From Bacteriovoracaceae bacterium (GTDB lineage Bacteria > Bdellovibrionota > Bacteriovoracia > Bacteriovoracales > Bacteriovoracaceae): a stretch of DNA of 10,934 nt. Shown here in pieces: positions 1 to 6,000 of this stretch (positions are counted from its first letter, which is position 1; each line of letters begins with the position of its first letter). The position numbers are program-made. The stretch covers positions 1 through 10,934 of the forward strand of contig JBFGZE010000098.1 of assembly GCA_041586955.1 (NCBI GenBank), read 5' to 3'.

Positions 1-3000
1 ACGGGCCAATTGCGCTCCTTTTGTATCATAAAGGCGGGCCACTTCGCCACGTTCAAATTCTCCTCTAACCTCGAGTATTCCCTTGGCCAATAAACTACTC
101 CCTTGATCCTTCAGTGCCTTCGCTGCTCCCGTATCGATAATAATATCGCCAGCAGGAGGAGGTCCGGCGAGTATCCATCTTTTGCGATTTTCCAAGGGTG
201 ACTCTAAGGGCCTAAAATGTGTTCCCACTTCAAGGCCGCTGACAATATCAGTGATCACATCTGGTCGGCCACCAGCCGCCATAACCACTTCAATGCCAGC
301 ACGACGGGCGACATCTGCGGCCTGTAGCTTGGTTATCATCCCGCCCGTCCCCAAATGACTACCACTGCCACTCGCCAAATTGTGTAAGGTTTCATCAATA
401 GTATGGACTTGGCGGATAAGATCCGCATTAGGGTTTTTACGAGGATCTTCGGTAAAGAGACCTGGTTGATCAGTTAGTAAGATCAATTGATCAGCTTCGG
501 CGAGAATTCCCACCATGGCCGATAGATTATCATTATCGCCCACTTTAATTTCAAAGGTGGCGACAGCATCATTTTCATTGACCACTGGTACAATGCCATT
601 TTCAAGCAATGCCACCAGCATATCTCGGGCATTAAGAAAGCGTTCACGGTCATCAAAATCAGCTCGGGTCAACAACATTTGACCGACATGAATACCATAT
701 AGGCCAAAAAGGTTTTCCCATTCTTGGATTAATCGACTTTGCCCAACAGCGGCCAGCAATTGTTGCGAGGCCATGGTTTTGGGAAGCTTAGGATTATTGA
801 GATGTTCACGACCTGCGGCGATAGCGCCAGAGGTTACCAGAACCACTTGATGCCCGTTTCTCTGTAGATGAGCACATTGTCGTACCAGTTCAACCATATG
901 AGCACGATCGATCTTATCAGTCCCACCAGTGATAACACTGGTACCGAGTTTTATAACGATTGTTTGTTTTTTGCTTTTATTTTCCATTGTCTAAAATTTT
1001 ATCAATCACCTCCATAGATCACAAGAGGTATGTTCAGGTTCTTGACACTGCGAACTGAAACTTTTTTAAGATAAGGAATAATAATATCACCATAAATGGT
1101 ATTCATAATTTCTTTCCATTAGTATCGAGATTTTTTAAATAGCGACTCTGAATGATTGGCGTAAAATAAAAGGAAAGGCCAAGGATCAAGGGTCAATTCT
1201 CCTATTCAGTTGTTGAGAGCGTTCGCATCGATCCAGGCCTTAATCATTTCTATCTCTTTTACCGTTAGAAAAGGGCCGCCCCTAGGCATACGATCCCCTA
1301 AACGAAAGTCATTTTGAGTGATAAGCTTAGCAATAAGGTAACTTTGACGAGGATCTGAATTTCCTGGTCGCACTCGCAACACCCCTCCAAGCGCCTGCCC
1401 TTCAACAGAGGCGGTGCCGACCAAGTTCTGATAGGCACGTTCCTTAACAGAGAGATCAAGTCCATGAGGGGCCGAACTTCCCGTATGGCAGCCAAAGCAG
1501 CGCGATAAAATATTTTTATGAATAAAAGTAAAAGTCGGTACTTCGCCATTACCTCCTTGCCCCCCATCCCCCGCCGTATCTCCATTAGTGTCTCCCACTA
1601 TTATAAGATCATCGGGATTAATATCTTGAGGAGCAATGCAGTTATTGATGAGACCTCCTATGGGCAAAAGTTGCGGGCAGGGAAGGCCGGGAGCCGTTTT
1701 ATGGTTAAACCATAACAATTCACTGGCCAAATGCATGGCACCAGCTGTGTCGTATTGGTCTTTTGCAACTTGCCATTCTTGGACACCAATTTGCTTGGCC
1801 CTGGCCGCGAATACTGGGGCGATTCCATCATTTAGGCCTTCTTGCCGCGGTAAAGGTAAGCGTGGATCACGATGGAAAATGGCGCTGGCCCTCTGTTCAT
1901 AAGGGGCAAGGTCATCCGGGAGCGGAGCGGATAATTGAAGAGATGCTTGATTAAGGATCGTCTGAAAAAAACCGACCATTATTGGCAACAATTGTCTTTG
2001 AGCAATATTTTTTTCACCAAATAATTTGAGAGCATTAAGGGCCCCTAATAATGCCGCCACATGCTCACTCGACCATTCTTTTTCGTTGGGAAATGTTTGT
2101 AATTTTCGATCAAATGCCCGGTTAATAAATTGAAAAGAGTCTTGTATAAATTGCAGGTCTTCTTCATTTTGTGTCAACCGATAAAACGCCATCAATCCTT
2201 GAATTCGATAGGCATGATCAAAAAGATCTAGGTTTTTTAAGGACCTTAATTTTTTAACGAGAGGTAAAATATCCCCGGTTACGATGGAACTCTCTTTAGT
2301 GAAACTTGTATACCATAGCAAACTAAGAATAGCGTTGGTACACTCCCGTGCATTTTGTGGTTCTTTATCGATGTTAAAATAGATATTCTCCACGGCGGTA
2401 CGCAACTCCTTTATTATTAAAGTGATAATTTTCCCCTCCTTTAAAGAAATAATTTGAGCACATCGGTTATTAGAACGAAGAGGTAGAAGTGAGCTAGTAC
2501 TTGTTAAATATTCGGCCAGATTTGAGATCGCACCCAATGCTAGGTATTCACCACTTAAATCCATATGATTAAAAAGATGAGGGTTTTTAATATATTCTCT
2601 GGCCTGTTCTAGGCCAGTTAGACATAGTATCATTCCTAATAGCCGTTGATCGGCCCCTGGTATCTGACTACGGCCAGGAACACCAAACAGACGATCATTA
2701 TTGAAATATTTAACGGCCTCTATCTCCTGTATCAAAGTCCAGGCAAATGCCTGAGAGCTAGTTTTCCCTGGTGCCCCCTGGATCCAGCGAAAATTTCGGA
2801 GGTCAAGTGGGTTATTATTCATAGGGCTGATTAATTGAGGATTCCCTTTATTAAATACCCTTTTTAAGAGAACCAAACCATTGGGTGGAACTGCTGTTGA
2901 AATTCGATCAGAGGCCAATTTGACCATTTGCTCTAAGGTTGCCGGTAATATTTCAAACGGTTCCCCCAACCCTGATTGCAGGGCCTGTGCCATTAAATTA

Positions 3001-6000
3001 TAGCGGGAGTACCAATAGCTTTGACCAAGAGTTTCTGCAAAGGATAGCTTTAACAAAGTATTTTGTCCTGTGATAGGCGTCTTGCAATTGAGGTCTTCCT
3101 CAGGACAGTCAAAAATGGGGTGATGCTTGCCACTACAGGCAAAGATGAGCAAGTGTAGTAACGACAAAATGAATAAGGAGCGGTGCTGATTACCCATAAT
3201 TAGGACCCCTCACAACCAAAATCTCAAAACCGCAAAGACATCCTTTTGATCAGATTTGATATGACTCCCCTCAATCCTAGGCACTTGGATATTTGATTCT
3301 TCATACCGTAAAAGAAGTAAGGTATTGGCATTGATTTGATGCCTGAGGCCTAGGCCATAGCGAATATAAGAATCACTTTTGAAATTATTATCGAGGAGTA
3401 AATGGTCATATTTAACCATAGCGATCCATGTGGGAGTGATTTCCCATTTGAAGTTGACCAATAGTCCACGAGAAGTTTTGTCTTTAATGGCCTGCTTGTA
3501 GGCAAGGCCAGCGGTGGTATTAGGAATGAAGTTTCCAATATAACGGGGGTTATGAATATCATTATAAAATCGCGCATAAACCAATTCACTGGCGATATGG
3601 GCCTTCCACTTTGTTTTAAATAATTGATCGAAAGTCAAAATACCATAAAATGAATAGGCATAGGGATTAGGCGCAGCGACTTCCTTGGTTTGGTGATAGG
3701 AATAACTCGTGCCTAATAATAGCGGCCATTGGTGATGATTAAAGCGCATATTACCAATAACGCCAAATGTTTGATCATTGATAGTTAAATTCCCCCCTCC
3801 ATTTTTAAAACCTAGTCCATTGGTCAGGGCAAGGTCCAAATGAAGAGAGGCGAGAGGGTCAAAAGAGAAAACCCCTCCCATTTCCCTCTCGCGCAGAGTG
3901 GTGGCGGTTTGAAATCGAGTATAGGTTCTATGTTCATCAGTTAATAGGCCAAATGGGGCATAGAAATTTCCAAAAACAATGCTTGAAGGTTGCCAAAATA
4001 CATCATCATTATTTTGCCAAAGTAGATAGATCTCTCTGGTGCCAGGCGCGAAGGTGCCAAAATCATAACTGAGCAATACGCTGGTACTAAACCCATCATC
4101 TTTTTCAACAATGGGGATATTGGCCGAAACTGTGGCGGTCATGAGGCCTAGGCCATTGGTCGTTAGATGGTTGGGTCGCTTGGTATCTTTAAGAAAAAGC
4201 GCACGGAAGTCTGCATAATAAAGATCTGTCTCATTATGGAGTCCCGCTTTTAAATCCCTTGCACCGTAAATCTTTCCCATGATGCGTCTCGGACCGGCCC
4301 CCCATGGGTTGACATGGCATTGAATACAATTGAGTTTTTCGCGGGCGGCGTATTCTGGTCTGGCCAGCAAGGAGAAAGAGAATAAAAGACCAAGGATAGC
4401 GGCTAATGGTGGCCAATCTTTCATAGAAAATCCTTAGCGTAAAAGGAGTGGGGAGCATGCTAGTCCCCACTCAATGGGAGTTAAGGAATATTAGGGAAGC
4501 CATTGACCTCCGCATGATGTAACCATAAAAACTCACTGGCCAATTGCATGGCGCCGGCACTATCAAAGCTATTTACTCTTTCCCAATGGCCGCTCTTCAT
4601 AGAAACTTCTGATGCAAAAACGGGAGCGATACCAAATTCACCACCGGCAAGTGCTGGTACCGGAAGTGAGGGGTGACGATGGAGCATAGAATCATCTCTA
4701 CGCTCGTAGGGGGGAATCTTTTCAACGGGGGGAGCAGAGATTTGCATACCGGCCTGATTGAGAATGGTATCAAAAAACTTAACTAAAATATTTTCGACTT
4801 GTTCTTGATCAACGCGACCAGCAACAAAAAGTTTTAAGGAATTGAGAGCGCCGATAAGGACGGCGACATCAGACGTATTATAAGTGAAAAAACCGTTAAA
4901 AATCCCCTTCTCGCTATTAAAGCTCGTGGCAAACTCGCTATATTGGCGAGCGGCAAGTTTCATATAACGAGGGGAATCTGTTACCCGGCCGATTTCAATG
5001 AGAGCTCTGATCATATGCGCTTGATCCACTGGATTGCTGGCCTTCAGGCCGGCCAATTCTTGTCCATAAGCTATAATTTGGGTTTTTATGGCCATGCGAT
5101 CAGCTTGATTAGCGTAGGCATACCAAATTAGGGATTGGATCGCCTCGGAAAGTTCGGGGATTGTGGTTGGCCTGTCAATTTTCTGATAAAGAGATTTGGC
5201 CGTTTGTAAAAATGATTCTGAAATTTCTTCTGCAGTTTTACCGAGCATCATAGATGCCAAAAGCGCGCAGCGGTTTTCTCGCATAAATGGGCGAAATGAA
5301 TTTTTAACCGTCAAATATTGTGAAAAATTGGCAATTGCTTTGAGTGCCACGTATTGACCGACGATATTAGAAAAATCAAATAAATCCTCATTTTCTTGAT
5401 ATTCTTTAAGTTGCATTAAGGATTCCGCACATAATACCAGACCGGCGAAGCGCTCTTGCGCTCCTGGGATATTGACTCGCATGGGGTCTCCAAAATGGAA
5501 GTCTATATTAAATTGTTTGACCCATTCGATCTCTTTCATCAAAACCCAGCCAAAGGCCGCAGCAGAAGTTTTGCTCGACTCTACTGGGGCCCAGCGAAAA
5601 TTATTAAAATCATTATCGATATTATTCGAAGCATTTATATAGGAAGGATTGCCTCCATTGAAAACCCGTTTTAATAATGCCGCATTTTTAGCAGGTACAG
5701 CAGTACTCCATTCATCAGAGACCATTTTAACCATCGCTTCTACCATTTCAGGACCCGGTTTAAATGTTTCGCCTAGATTCGACTTCATAACCAGGGAGCC
5801 GAGGTTATAACGAGAGTACCAATAAGCTTCTTCAAGTGCGTGGACAAATTTGAATTCTGCTGCCAACAATGACGTTAGAGATATCCCTAACCCTAGGGTA
5901 ATGAGAAACTTTTTAATGGAAAATGACAAAAATGTTCGCTTCATAACAAACTCTCCTTGTTAGGTATTGCTAATTCACTGATAACTTTTTTGATAAAATT

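What a model noticed while it worked through the whole genome (the two positions that open the first line are those of the whole stretch)
1206..5944. Cyc2-like fused monohaem cytochrome-porins (three paralogues) next to periplasmic cytochromes c: a candidate outer-membr [...]
g02892 (C98:3210-4424, 404 aa), g01802 (C39:6338-7522, 394 aa) and the more distant g02619 (C78:7365-8516, 383 aa) each have a signal peptide, a single CxxCH haem-c motif within the first 40 residues and then a porin barrel (16 strands in the model of g02892) ending in ...W-[LF]: the architecture of the iron oxidase Cyc2. They have no Pfam, NCBIfam or Swiss-Prot hit. Their N-terminal motif (A-R-P-E-Y-A-x6-CxxCH-V-x-P; g02619: A-Y-P-N-F-x7-CxxCH-x2-P) resembles but does not meet the published Cyc2 signature (AxPxFAR[QK][TY]-x5-CxxCH-x4-PxL), so they form a separate, uncharacterised family seen mostly in Bdellovibrionota/Oligoflexia metagenome bins. 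Each lies beside a small PSCyt-type monohaem [...]
Evidence so far: Sequences and CxxCH positions. Paralogy: g02892-g01802 40% over 397 aa, g02891 C-term-g01801 44%. AF2 model of g02892 from a 35-row alignment: pLDDT 87, pTM 0.86, short helical N-domain (res. 23-55) + 16 beta-strands; Foldseek PDB: 249 matches at E<=0.001, top ones all 16-strand porins (PorB 5.6e-12, chitoporin, OmpF/C, Omp32; OprP 2o4v 1.6e-9). Keffer et al. 2021 (PMC8406198, passages read, call 151) describe Cyc2 as one CXXCH + 16-strand porin like OprO/OprP and give the signature motif. 132 clusters at E<=1e-30 among 5.8e9 proteins, ~370-450 aa, none named, 1 of the 120 listed bears Pfam Porin_O_P. Alignment A7 (35 rows): invariant R22 P23 C33 C36 H37; near-invariant A21 E24 Y25 A26 P40. 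[...]
(Added by a program. Inside this text positions count along the whole contig: contig position 1 is position 1 of the stretch shown here. "Call 12" and the like, gene names such as g00115 and contig names such as C1 are that model's own, and its searches are not shown. The text may have been shortened before it was handed on; [...] marks where a part breaks off. The agent that wrote the report below was given it as the finding of a first reader that could run no searches.)

Follow-up and report, generated by a model that had tools for sequence, protein, structure and literature searches.

The report
Divergent Cyc2-type cytochrome-porin operon
A marine predatory-type bacterium carries outer-membrane pore proteins with one built-in haem that are distant relatives of the iron-oxidising protein Cyc2, so they probably carry electrons across the outer membrane, though for what substrate is unknown.

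Summary
Window 4424..3210 (minus) encodes a 404-aa protein with a signal peptide, one CxxCH at residues 33-37 and a 16-strand porin barrel (AF2 pLDDT 90.6; Foldseek). It has two paralogues in the genome and no Pfam or NCBIfam hit above cut-off.

New here: homology to Cyc2 is now supported. I fetched 21 genes carrying the published Cyc2 signature. Profile-profile comparison links them to this family at the haem domain (E 2.7e-7) and at the barrel (E 6.9e-8), and controls were far weaker. The strict signature is still absent (0 of 234), and a Cyc2 HMM does not detect the gene.

In 28 metagenome loci, relatives sit beside class I cytochromes c (16 loci) or cupredoxins (3 loci). This matches the gene context described for Cyc2.

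In the window the partners differ. They are two paralogous (alpha/alpha)6-fold proteins, one of them fused to a PSCyt1-like cytochrome.

Verdict: a new, divergent branch of the Cyc2-type cytochrome-porins and a likely outer-membrane electron conduit. Substrate and direction of flow are untested.

The parts
4481..5944 (-). g02893, 487 aa: secreted or periplasmic protein of an unnamed family ('X domain'), predicted (alpha/alpha)6-type helical toroid; no CxxCH
   Evidence: ORF. No Pfam or NCBIfam hit above cut-off. 66 homologous clusters, all unnamed. AF2 pLDDT 91.6, pTM 0.91. Foldseek best hits are GH9-like, GH88 and AGE-epimerase folds, E 2.7e-4 and weaker, TM about 0.4.
3210..4424 (-). g02892, 404 aa: fused monohaem cytochrome c / 16-strand porin
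   Evidence: Profile-profile homology to Cyc2-signature proteins.
4362..4424 (-). Signal peptide of g02892 (residues 1-21, inferred)
   Evidence: Hydrophobic leader read from the sequence. pLDDT is below 50 for residues 15-21. The conserved motif starts directly after the leader in the family. No signal-peptide predictor was on hand.
4287..4364 (-). N-terminal haem motif region, residues 21-46 (A-R-P-E-Y-A-x6-CIQCH-x2-P-x-G-x-G-x-R); CIQCH at 4314-4328
   Evidence: C33, C36 and H37 are invariant in 103 of 103 rows. A21, R22, P23, E24, Y25, A26 and P40 are >=90% conserved. Aligns in register with the A-x-P-x-F-A-R-Q-T-x3-CxxCH of Cyc2. Coordinates.
3216..4220 (-). 16-strand beta-barrel, residues 69-403
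   Evidence: DSSP of the AF2 model lists 16 strands. Porin matches in the PDB.
3915..3959 (-). Most conserved loop of the family, residues 156-170 (A-P-F-G-L-L-T-D-E-H-R-T-Y-T-R). It lies between strands 5 and 6, where porins have the constriction loop L3.
   Evidence: F158, G159, H165 and R166 are invariant; P157, L160, D163, E164, T167 and Y168 are >=90% conserved. Position. Its role as a haem ligand or metal site is inference.
4140..4142 (-). Codon of Met95, invariant; candidate sixth haem ligand (inferred)
   Evidence: Invariant column in A1; lies in strand 2. No model coordinates could be inspected.
1206..3197 (-). g02891, 663 aa: probable lipoprotein = X domain + linker + PSCyt1-like monohaem cytochrome c domain
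   Evidence: ORF. 40% identity over 458 aa to g02893, E 4e-102. The C-terminus is 44% identical to the 164-aa cytochrome beside the C39 paralogue.
1680..3050 (-). X domain of g02891 (residues about 50-506)
   Evidence: BLASTP alignment with g02893; coordinates.
1209..1541 (-). PSCyt1-like cytochrome c domain of g02891 (residues 553-663); CFGCH at 1485-1499
   Evidence: Pfam PSCyt1 is below cut-off here (14.1 bits against 22). A homologous X fusion, P0386, carries PF07635 in the precomputed Pfam column. Within the genome this domain subtype is found only beside g02892 and g01802.
3135..3137 (-). Cys21 of g02891, putative lipid-attachment cysteine (L-I-F-A-C)
   Evidence: Read from the sequence. 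The lipobox is atypical at position -2, so this is inference only.
5945..6678 (.). 734-nt AT-rich intergenic region upstream of the three genes; presumed promoter region
   Evidence: GC 0.35-0.37. Promoter-like sites are not above shuffles. No Rfam match. No Fur-box-like site above shuffles.

Best explanation
g02892 is an outer-membrane protein in which a very short N-terminal c-type haem module is fused to a 16-strand porin barrel. It belongs to a divergent branch of the same superfamily as the Fe(II) oxidase Cyc2.

Proposed mechanism:
1. The haem is attached at C33/C36 with H37 as ligand. It sits at or in the periplasmic mouth of the barrel.
2. A dissolved reductant enters the pore. By analogy with Cyc2 this is most likely Fe2+; Mn2+ or another small donor is possible.
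3. The reductant gives one electron to the haem.
4. The haem passes the electron to a periplasmic carrier. In this operon that carrier is the PSCyt1-like haem domain tethered to the lipoprotein g02891. On contig 39 it is the 164-aa lipoprotein cytochrome beside g01802.
5. From there electrons reach the cell's terminal oxidases or its nitrate reductase.

Shown in silico: the architecture, family conservation, homology to Cyc2, and the carrier-type neighbours.
Inferred: haem position and sixth ligand (M95 or H165), direction of flow, the substrate, and any role of the two (alpha/alpha)6 proteins.

Sub-odds: fused cytochrome-porin that transfers electrons, about 0.8. Common ancestry with Cyc2, about 0.75. 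Inward flow from an external donor, about 0.55. Fe(II) as that donor, about 0.3.
For: Architecture:
- One CxxCH at residues 33-37, directly after the leader.
- 16 strands in the model, pLDDT 90.6; porin fold.
- C33, C36 and H37 are invariant in 103 of 103 rows, as are M95 and H165.

Homology to Cyc2:
- hhalign, family against Cyc2, C-terminal barrel: Prob 94.6, E 6.9e-8, 108 columns. The reversed control gave E 0.06.
- N-terminus including the leader: Prob 96.9, E 1.7e-10. The reversed control gave 0.17.
- Mature N-terminus only: Prob 93.3, E 2.7e-7, score 34.7. 100 column shuffles gave mean 8.9, maximum 18.6.
- Stricter control: 134 unrelated CxxCH segments score 20.3 +/- 3.1 (maximum 29.0), while 21 Cyc2 segments score 28.7 +/- 2.9. 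Only 1 of 134 controls reaches the Cyc2 mean.
- The genome's own haem-less porin matches none of the three profiles (E 0.06-0.23).
- The motif starts at the mature N-terminus in this family, as printed for Cyt572 (passage), and the spacing to CxxCH is the same as in Cyc2.

Context:
- Of 28 metagenome loci, 16 have an adjacent gene with Cytochrome_CBB3 or Cytochrom_C above Pfam cut-off (1-4 CxxCH).
- 3 loci have a cupredoxin: L074, and L078/L079, which share one layout and identical match E-values. L079 itself was not scanned.
- Only 27 of the 45 neighbour ORFs were scanned.
- In the own genome, the porin and its cytochrome domain are duplicated together: porins 40% identical, cytochrome domains 44% identical. 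That cytochrome subtype occurs nowhere else in the genome.
- The g02619-type gene keeps a PSCyt-like monohaem cytochrome gene within about 4 kb in 7 of 9 relatives' loci.

Electron sinks: three COX1-family oxidases in the genome.
Against: - The strict Cyc2 signature is absent: P-E-Y-A-A-R-E in place of P-x-F-A-R-[QK]-[TY]. It occurs in 0 of 234 family proteins and 0 of 120 proteins of the g02619 family.
- The P-x-L motif 4 residues after CxxCH is absent. Pro is at +3, followed by a Gly-rich stretch.
- An HMM built from the 21 Cyc2 proteins finds nothing in this genome with default filters. With filters off, g02892 scores E 3.1 and g01802 E 1.4. The best hit is an ordinary porin at E 0.0044.
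- Much of the N-terminal profile score is carried by CxxCH itself. The margin over unrelated CxxCH segments is about 2.7 SD.
- The 21 Cyc2 sequences are related to each other, so they are not independent tests.
- Class I cytochromes and cupredoxins also donate electrons to peroxidases and reductases, so the neighbours do not fix the direction of flow.
- No RuBisCO was found, in a genome 88% complete. Nothing indicates iron lithotrophy.
- No Fur-box-like site or riboswitch lies upstream.
- None of the 24 genomes of the same GTDB family searched has a close g02892-type gene, so the gene is not a core function.
- The window's own neighbours, the X-domain proteins, are absent from all 28 metagenome loci and are unexplained.
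Confidence: 0.55

Rival explanations
1. Same protein, opposite direction. Periplasmic high-potential carriers (PSCyt1 domain, class I cytochromes, cupredoxins) feed electrons outward to the pore haem. The haem then reduces an oxidant that is outside or entering the pore, such as H2O2 or other reactive oxygen species, or Mn(III/IV) or Fe(III) species. It would act as an outer-membrane 'gatekeeper' peroxidase or as a terminal reductase.
For: Small class I cytochromes and cupredoxins are the usual electron donors of bacterial cytochrome c peroxidases (established knowledge; not tested here). These are the neighbour types seen in 19 of 28 loci. An invariant His-Arg pair (H165-R166) preceded by Asp-Glu lies in the putative constriction loop; these are residue types found in distal pockets of peroxidases (recalled). 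There is no sign of lithotrophy.
Against: All characterised relatives (Cyc2 of A. ferrooxidans, Cyc2 PV-1, Cyt572, Cyc2 TAG1) oxidise Fe(II) (passages and one section read). An invariant Met95 and His165 suggest a six-coordinate haem, as the EPR of Cyc2 TAG1 indicates for that protein. That would fit electron transfer better than peroxide chemistry. Haem geometry could not be inspected.
Confidence: 0.2
2. The operon is a redox-assisted glycan-processing module. The two (alpha/alpha)6 proteins are the catalytic parts, acting on a polysaccharide or envelope glycan of prey or environment. The tethered cytochrome and the cytochrome-porin supply or remove electrons for them, loosely like cytochrome domains that serve oxidative carbohydrate enzymes.
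For: X has a six-hairpin-glycosidase-like fold. The Atlas points the same way at low scores, 0.80-0.82. X is repeatedly fused to cytochrome c domains: P0365 with Cytochrome_CBB3/Cytochrom_C, P0386 with PSCyt1, and P0363 and P0364, which are 634-646 aa long like g02891. X and the porin appear linked in further bins: P0364 and P0003 carry neighbouring locus tags, and P0356/P0002 and P0365/P0036 report the same longest-contig lengths, 45203 and 34353.
Against: Fold matches are weak (best E 2.7e-4, TM about 0.4, 8-13% identity) and no catalytic residues were identified. X is absent from 28 of 28 metagenome loci of the porin family. X also occurs in bins labelled Anaerolineae, so the two families are not obligate partners.
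Confidence: 0.12
3. It is an ordinary diffusion porin. Its haem has no electron-transfer role (structural plug, sensor, or haem/iron storage or uptake), or the resemblance to Cyc2 is convergent.
For: 4 of 84 full-length representatives of the family lack CxxCH altogether yet keep the barrel (E about 1e-41). The barrel can therefore exist without haem. A Cyc2 HMM does not recognise the gene.
Against: CxxCH and the surrounding motif are invariant or near-invariant across 103 sequences that are only about 30-50% identical. Redox-carrier genes are adjacent in 19 of 28 loci and in all three own-genome loci. Profile-profile matches to Cyc2 occur at both the haem module and the barrel.
Confidence: 0.08

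Closest known systems
Cyc2 family of fused cytochrome-porins (Cyc2 of Acidithiobacillus ferrooxidans, Cyc2 PV-1 of Mariprofundus ferrooxydans, Cyt572 of Leptospirillum, Cyc2 TAG1 of Ghiorsea bivora)
   Same: - Signal peptide, a single CxxCH within about 15 residues of the mature N-terminus, then a 16-strand porin barrel, about 400 aa in all.
- Motif A-x-P-x-[FY]-A-x6-CxxCH with identical spacing.
- Significant profile-profile matches at the N-terminus and the C-terminal barrel.
- Neighbours are soluble cytochromes c and cupredoxins. The review text describes a Cyc2-rusticyanin-Cyc1 chain (passage).
   Different: - Lacks the defining R-[QK]-[TY] after F-A and the P-x-L after CxxCH. It has -x2-P-x-G-G-G-x-R-[NT]- instead.
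- Not found by a Cyc2 HMM.
- Has its own invariant loop, F-G-L-x-[TD]-D-E-H-R.
- The only taxon names given by sources are Bdellovibrio-type bins, not known iron oxidisers.
- The window's partners are a PSCyt1-type domain and (alpha/alpha)6 proteins.
- No activity data exist.
General 16-strand porins (OprP/OprO, PorB, chitoporin, OmpF/OmpC, Omp32)
   Same: Barrel fold: 251 PDB matches at E<=0.001, TM 0.5-0.6. A long conserved loop after strand 5, where L3 lies in porins.
   Different: No solved porin among the matches carries an N-terminal haem module. Sequence identity is 7-13%. The genome's own haem-less porin is not detectably related at profile level.
Porin-cytochrome complexes (MtrAB/MtoAB/PioAB, PCC)
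   Same: The task is the same: moving electrons across the outer membrane through a barrel (passages).
   Different: Those are two or three separate proteins with a 26-strand barrel and a decahaem or dodecahaem wire. Here there is one polypeptide, 16 strands and one haem.
PSCyt1 'Planctomycete cytochrome C' domain (PF07635) proteins, with the PSCyt3/PSD2 and DUF1501 partners
   Same: The C-terminal domain of g02891 and the 164-aa protein on C39 resemble PSCyt1, below cut-off. The 583-aa protein near g02619 scores above cut-off (27.4 bits against 22) and sits beside a DUF1501 protein.
   Different: These domains have no known function. Their association with a cytochrome-porin, and fusion to an (alpha/alpha)6 domain, came up in none of my literature searches, none of which was aimed at PSCyt1.
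Six-hairpin (alpha/alpha)6 glycosidase/epimerase fold (GH9-like 3h7l, GH88 1vd5, AGE-family epimerases)
   Same: Overall helical toroid of the X domain.
   Different: Only weak fold similarity (E 2.7e-4 at best). No sequence-family membership. Recurrent fusion to cytochrome c domains.

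Membership tests
Cyc2 (as defined by Keffer et al. 2021, PMC8406198, passages read) | Signal peptide and a single CxxCH near the N-terminus | tested here: met
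   Hydrophobic leader, with CIQCH at residues 33-37 as the only CxxCH. Conserved in 103 of 103 aligned relatives. No signal-peptide program was run.
Cyc2 (as defined by Keffer et al. 2021, PMC8406198, passages read) | 16-stranded porin barrel fused after the cytochrome module | tested here: met
   AF2 model with 16 strands, pLDDT 90.6. Porin matches including OprP 2o4v.
Cyc2 (as defined by Keffer et al. 2021, PMC8406198, passages read) | Length of at least 365 aa | tested here: met
   404 aa; the paralogues are 394 and 383 aa.
Cyc2 (as defined by Keffer et al. 2021, PMC8406198, passages read) | Upstream motif P-x-F-A-R-[QK]-[TY] | tested here: not met
   The window has P-E-Y-A-A-R-E. The motif is in 0 of 234 family proteins and 0 of 120 g02619-family proteins. 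Only P, the aromatic residue, A and the spacing are shared.
Cyc2 (as defined by Keffer et al. 2021, PMC8406198, passages read) | P-x-L motif 4 residues after CxxCH | tested here: not met
   The window has CH-V-N-P-W-G. The family consensus is CH-V-x-P-x-G-G-G.
Cyc2 (as defined by Keffer et al. 2021, PMC8406198, passages read) | Recognition by a Cyc2 profile HMM (FeGenie clusters 1-3) | tested here: not met
   The FeGenie HMMs were not on hand. My own HMM of 21 Cyc2-signature proteins gave no hit with default filters. With --max it gave E 3.1 for g02892, 1.4 for g01802, and 0.02 for g01802 with the N-terminal model.
Cyc2 superfamily (common ancestry of the fused cytochrome-porin) | Profile-profile similarity in both the haem module and the barrel, above controls | tested here: met
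   hhalign E 2.7e-7 (mature N-terminus) and 6.9e-8 (barrel). Controls: reversed 0.06-0.17; shuffled columns maximum score 18.6 against 34.7; unrelated CxxCH segments 20.3 +/- 3.1 against 28.7 +/- 2.9; own porin E 0.06-0.23. g02619 family against Cyc2: E 4.3e-6.
Cyc2 (function) | Oxidises Fe(II); haem potential suited to it | not testable with these tools
   Needs expression and biochemistry.
PSCyt1 (PF07635) for the C-terminal domain of g02891 | Score above Pfam gathering cut-off (22 bits) | tested here: not met
   14.1 bits, E 0.076. The paralogous 164-aa protein scores 15.5 bits and is closer to Cytochrome_CBB3 (23.7 bits against 27). I therefore call it 'PSCyt1-like class I-type cytochrome c domain', not a member.

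The most novel reading that the evidence does not exclude
Bdellovibrio-type bacteria, a phylum that includes obligate predators, hold a large, unrecognised radiation of Cyc2-superfamily cytochrome-porins. At least two families exist, with 107 and 582 clusters. Their job may not be iron lithotrophy. In this reading they form an outer-membrane redox port wired to PSCyt-type cytochromes, whose function has long been unknown, and to cytochrome-tagged (alpha/alpha)6 enzymes. The port might draw electrons from, or deliver oxidising power to, material outside the cell, including the prey envelope during attack. That would give PSCyt1-type cytochromes their first functional context and extend fused cytochrome-porins beyond metal oxidation.
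Probability: 0.15. Interest if true: 0.8.

Novelty: new variant of a known kind. Interest (0 to 1): 0.55.

Why it matters
Cyc2 is used as the marker gene for neutrophilic iron oxidation in metagenomes. It is recognised through the P-x-F-A-R-[QK]-[TY] motif and HMMs built on it. This work shows that the same fused architecture, with in-register motif spacing, continues into families that fail both filters. The only taxon names sources give for them are Bdellovibrio-type bins, a phylum that includes bacterial predators.

Two consequences follow. The fused cytochrome-porin superfamily is wider than the trees built with that filter. And its function outside known iron oxidisers, which the Cyc2 authors themselves flag as open, can be tested in a lineage with cultivable members. 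The consistent pairing with PSCyt-type cytochromes also offers a first handle on that large domain family of unknown function.

Tried and rejected
- my first scan of genome contigs for the Cyc2 signature had one N too many (52 nt, out of frame).
- the signature with the 'x5' spacing quoted in the finding hit 1 of 401 genomes. That hit lies on the strand opposite the ispG/hisS genes and is a chance match.
- a literature search for motif strings returned only German medical papers ('Infarkt').
- the Atlas search on the porin gave unnamed clusters only, commonest in Bdellovibrionota, Nitrospirota and Myxococcota, plus one in Pseudomonadota where 20% of members carry Porin_O_P. These are leads, not evidence.
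- the full-library profile search lists only the best 150 hits, all from the family itself. The 1948 hits at E<=0.001 could not be inspected for Cyc2.
- PDB sequence search with the X-domain profile found nothing (best E 0.74).
- promoter and terminator scans were not above shuffles.
- no Rfam match in the window.
- no Fur-box-like site above shuffles (best 12 of 19). The consensus was recalled from E. coli and may not apply to this phylum.
- no RNA holder was listed.
- Complex prediction (porin plus X protein plus haem) was not available, so nothing was folded. Binding between the operon's proteins is untested.
- I could not read model coordinates. The position of the haem module relative to the barrel and the distances from M95 and H165 to H37 are unknown.
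- Considered and rejected: CxxCH as a chance motif. It is invariant across the family, and only 65 of 6042 ORFs in the genome have any CxxCH.

Full report
WHAT IS THERE

Three tightly packed minus-strand genes fill the flagged stretch:
- g02893: 5944..4481, 487 aa.
- g02892: 4424..3210, 404 aa.
- g02891: 3197..1206, 663 aa.

The gaps between them are 56 and 12 nt, and each start is preceded by a Shine-Dalgarno-like sequence. Upstream lies a 734-nt AT-rich spacer (GC about 0.35). Downstream, after 218 nt, is proB. None of the three proteins reaches a Pfam or NCBIfam cut-off.

THE CYTOCHROME-PORIN (g02892)

The protein starts with a hydrophobic leader. It then reads A-R-P-E-Y-A-x6-C-I-Q-C-H at residues 21-37, which contains its only CxxCH.

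A search of 5.8 billion proteins found 107 clusters with E<=7.8e-34, all about 370-460 aa. The only names given are hypothetical proteins from Bdellovibrionales, Bdellovibrionia, Bdellovibrionota and Bdellovibrionaceae bins. Of these, 105 of 107 have the motif; the other two are shorter (319 and 353 aa) and may be N-terminally incomplete.

In an alignment of 103 full-length members (A1):
- Invariant: C33, C36, H37, G42, G50, K51, M95, G152, F158, G159, H165, R166, G183, G238, S240, E280.
- Conserved at >=90%: A21, R22, P23, E24, Y25, A26, P40.

AF2 on that alignment gives pLDDT 90.6 and pTM 0.88, with short helices at residues 23-54 and 16 strands. Foldseek finds 251 PDB chains at E<=0.001. 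The top ones are all 16-strand porins: chitoporin at 5.2e-12, PorB, DcaP, Omp32, OmpF/C, and OprP at rank 24.

The most conserved stretch, residues 156-170 (P-F-G-L-L-T-D-E-H-R-T-Y-T-R), lies between strands 5 and 6. That is where porins carry the constriction loop. This placement, and the idea that M95 or H165 is the sixth haem ligand, are inferences, because I could not read the model's coordinates.

The exhaustive profile search counted 141 representatives at E<=1e-30, 393 at <=1e-10 and 1948 at <=0.001. Of the 84 full-length representatives new in that search, 4 lack CxxCH, so haem-less versions of the barrel exist.

PARALOGUES

- The C39 copy (394 aa) is 40% identical (E 2.5e-91).
- The C78 copy (383 aa) matches by single sequence only over 46 N-terminal residues (E 1e-3).
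- The C78 copy's own family is larger: 582 proteins, with names from Halobacteriovoraceae, Bacteriovoracaceae, Oligoflexales and Bdellovibrionales bins. A profile of 60 of them is homologous to A1 over 344 columns (Prob 98.7, E 4e-16; reversed control 0.088).
- A scan of all 6042 ORFs of the genome for the loosened motif finds just these three genes plus one chance match.
- In 24 genomes of the same GTDB family, none has a close g02892-type gene. 8 of the 24 have a g02619-type gene (N-terminal hits of E 1e-6 to 1e-9 in ORFs of 369-403 aa). The g02892 type is therefore patchy.

IS IT RELATED TO Cyc2?

No Cyc2 sequence was at hand, so I fetched some. My first pattern was mistyped. The spacing quoted in the finding (x5) found only a chance match.

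A variable-gap pattern then hit 104 of 401 genomes of one phylum sample. Every listed match is 45 nt long, i.e. P-x-F-A-R-[QK]-[TY]-x3-CxxCH, except one 52-nt match in G001 that gave no motif-bearing ORF. The true distance from F-A to the first Cys is therefore six residues, exactly as in the window (Y-A, six residues, C).

From 30 loci I took 21 complete proteins of 398-522 aa (A2). Dropped were one locus without an ORF, four open or truncated at a locus end, one truncated at a contig start, one with masked residues, one short ORF and one near-duplicate. Two of the 21 have the CAACH haem site and several have the CLSCH site that the 2026 review prints for A. ferrooxidans Cyc2 and for Cyc2 PV-1.

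hhalign of A1 against A2:
- C-terminal barrel: Prob 94.6, E 6.9e-8, 108 columns. Reversed A2 gave E 0.06.
- N-terminus with leader: Prob 96.9, E 1.7e-10. Reversed control gave 0.17.
- Mature N-terminus only: Prob 93.3, E 2.7e-7, score 34.7. 100 column shuffles gave mean 8.9, maximum 18.6.

In that alignment A-R-P-E-Y-A pairs with A-i-P-a-F-A and the two CxxCH coincide.

Because CxxCH alone anchors such alignments, I ran a harder control. 134 unrelated CxxCH segments from this genome and the fetched loci score 20.3 +/- 3.1 (maximum 29.0). The 21 Cyc2 segments score 28.7 +/- 2.9 (range 25.5-36.1). Only 1 of 134 controls reaches the Cyc2 mean. An earlier run of this control was contaminated with family members and is superseded. 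The margin is real but modest, and the 21 Cyc2 proteins are kin.

Further points:
- The genome's own haem-less porin matches none of the profiles (E 0.06-0.23).
- The g02619 family also matches Cyc2 over the haem module and first strands (Prob 86.8, E 4.3e-6; reversed control 0.4).

Against membership:
- The strict signature occurs in 0 of 234 proteins of this family and 0 of 120 of the g02619 family.
- P-x-L after the haem site is replaced by -x2-P-x-G-G-G-x-R-[NT].
- An HMM of A2 finds nothing in the genome with default filters. With filters off it scores g02892 at E 3.1 and g01802 at E 1.4, below an ordinary porin at E 0.0044.

My reading: this is the same superfamily (about 0.75) but a separate branch that the published Cyc2 criteria exclude by design.

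NEIGHBOURS ACROSS THE FAMILY

A metagenome scan gave 28 loci of the g02892 family. I listed the largest ORF abutting each side, 45 in all, and scanned 27 of them against Pfam. These were the ones with CxxCH plus a selection of the others.
- 16 loci have an adjacent gene with Cytochrome_CBB3 or Cytochrom_C above cut-off, with 1-4 CxxCH. It is on the same strand as the porin gene in all but one (L083).
- 3 loci have a plastocyanin/azurin-type cupredoxin: L074, L078 and L079. L079 was not scanned itself; it has the same layout and match E-value as L078, so the two may be the same organism.
- The rest are mostly short contigs.

For the g02619 type, nine loci from relatives' genomes were examined. 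A PSCyt-like monohaem cytochrome gene lies within about 4 kb in 7 of 9, and a homologue of the 352-aa downstream gene is present in 6 of 9.

Soluble class I cytochromes and cupredoxins are the kind of partners described for Cyc2 (Cyc1, rusticyanin, passage).

NEIGHBOURS IN THE WINDOW

g02893 and the first roughly 510 residues of g02891 are paralogues: 40% identity over 458 aa, E 4e-102.

This 'X domain' family has 66 clusters, all unnamed, with labels from Deltaproteobacteria, Bdellovibrionales, Anaerolineae and Zipacnadales bins. AF2 gives pLDDT 91.6 and pTM 0.91 and an all-helical toroid. Foldseek's best matches are (alpha/alpha)6 enzymes (GH9-like 3h7l at 2.7e-4, GH88, AGE-type epimerases, GH76), with TM about 0.4 and 8-13% identity. 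The Atlas points the same way at low scores. The fold is therefore assigned; the activity is not.

X is repeatedly fused to cytochrome c domains: P0365, P0386, P0363, P0364 and g02891 itself.

X is also linked to the porin outside this genome. P0364 and the porin P0003 carry adjacent locus tags in one bin. Two further X/porin pairs report identical longest-contig lengths, which is suggestive only. However, X is absent from all 28 metagenome loci and occurs only in this window within the genome.

The C-terminal 111 residues of g02891 (CFGCH at residue 567) are 44% identical to the 164-aa lipoprotein cytochrome directly upstream of the C39 paralogue. That subtype occurs nowhere else in the genome. 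Porin and cytochrome thus appear to have duplicated as a pair, which argues that they work together. Pfam places these domains near PSCyt1/Cytochrome_CBB3 but below cut-off. The 583-aa protein near g02619 is PSCyt1 above cut-off and sits beside a DUF1501 protein.

HOW IT MOST LIKELY WORKS

A single haem at the periplasmic end of a porin can bridge the outer membrane only for something small enough to enter the pore. This is the argument made for Cyc2 and dissolved Fe2+ (passages).

I therefore favour this sequence: a small reductant enters the barrel and reduces the haem. The electron then moves to the tethered PSCyt1-like haem of g02891, or to the 164-aa cytochrome at the second locus. From there it reaches one of three haem-copper oxidases, or the Nap system noted earlier in this genome (not checked by me).

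- Shown: architecture, conservation, homology and partner types.
- Inferred: everything about direction and substrate.

Fe(II) is the default by analogy. Nothing in the genome points to iron lithotrophy: no RuBisCO was found at 88% completeness, and there is no Fur-like site or riboswitch upstream. The same partner types would equally serve outward flow to an oxidant such as peroxide.

The two X proteins flanking the porin are unexplained by the Cyc2 analogy. They are the most unusual part of the locus.

KNOWN OR NEW

Searches for Cyc2 together with Bdellovibrionota (7 papers, 6 listed; I opened two) and for 'cytochrome-porin' together with BALO genus names (none of the 10 papers listed contains 'cytochrome-porin') found no description of this family. 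One survey table lists a single Bdellovibrionota bin among MAGs with 'iron oxidation' gene families, without saying which.

The Cyc2 authors state that they filter on the P-x-F-A-R-[QK]-[TY] motif and that distant homologues need functional tests. I class this finding as a new variant of a known kind.

The source is a marine metagenome bin: four DNA runs of one study, none RNA.

LIMITS

Noticed in passing
L005 6316-7374 (-), own genome contig 78: A 352-aa gene overlaps the stop of the g02619 cytochrome-porin by 10 nt. It has a signal peptide, a Lys/Arg/Glu-rich helical N-part and a C-part ending in ...L-Y-G-F, like an outer-membrane barrel. Homologues follow the g02619-type gene in 6 of 9 relatives' loci. 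It may be a fixed partner of that cytochrome-porin type.
   Followed up: partly
L102-L108 (relatives' genomes), flanks of the g02619-type gene: The same neighbourhoods hold several further monohaem proteins of 380-480 aa with leader-like (some lipoprotein-like) N-termini, with the CxxCH far from the N-terminus, plus small 122-135-aa PSCyt-like proteins, some with lipoprotein-like leaders. This looks like a conserved island rich in PSCyt-type cytochromes.
   Followed up: partly
P0335, P0336, P0337, P0341; L022 (G430:C2): These are haem-less relatives of the family. The barrel is homologous from model position about 63-72 onward (E 9e-43 to 3e-35), but there is no CxxCH and the N-terminus is different. 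They could help date when the haem module was gained or lost.
   Followed up: partly
window 6679-7833 and 7830-9029 (-): Two overlapping U32-family genes. The upstream one (399 aa) resembles TrhP/UbiU, below the equivalog cut-offs. The downstream one (384 aa) is a much more divergent U32 protein. The pair is reminiscent of the two-subunit U32 hydroxylases.
   Followed up: no
window 10269-10718 (+): A 149-aa stand-alone cyclic-nucleotide-binding domain protein with no DNA-binding domain. One metagenome locus (L088) has a cNMP-binding EAL protein directly upstream of its cytochrome-porin. This may be coincidence.
   Followed up: no
window 9123-10259 (+): A 378-aa protein with an N-terminal hydrophobic segment and weak TPR matches near residues 254-304; otherwise no family.
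   Followed up: no
window 5945-6678: A 734-nt AT-rich spacer upstream of the operon holds only two small ORFs (63 and 61 aa). It has no Rfam match and no promoter-like or Fur-like site above chance. This is long for an intergenic region in this genome piece.
   Followed up: partly
own genome C27:8321-9469 (-): An ordinary haem-less porin of about 375 aa is the best hit of the Cyc2 HMM in this genome (E 0.0044). This shows that barrel-driven HMM hits to Cyc2 are not specific.
   Followed up: yes
PMC8406198, section 'Recognizing cyc2/Cyc2 in other organisms': The paper's wording places the signature '5 amino acids upstream' of CxxCH. In the genes fetched here, 3 residues separate the [TY] from the first Cys.
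   Followed up: yes
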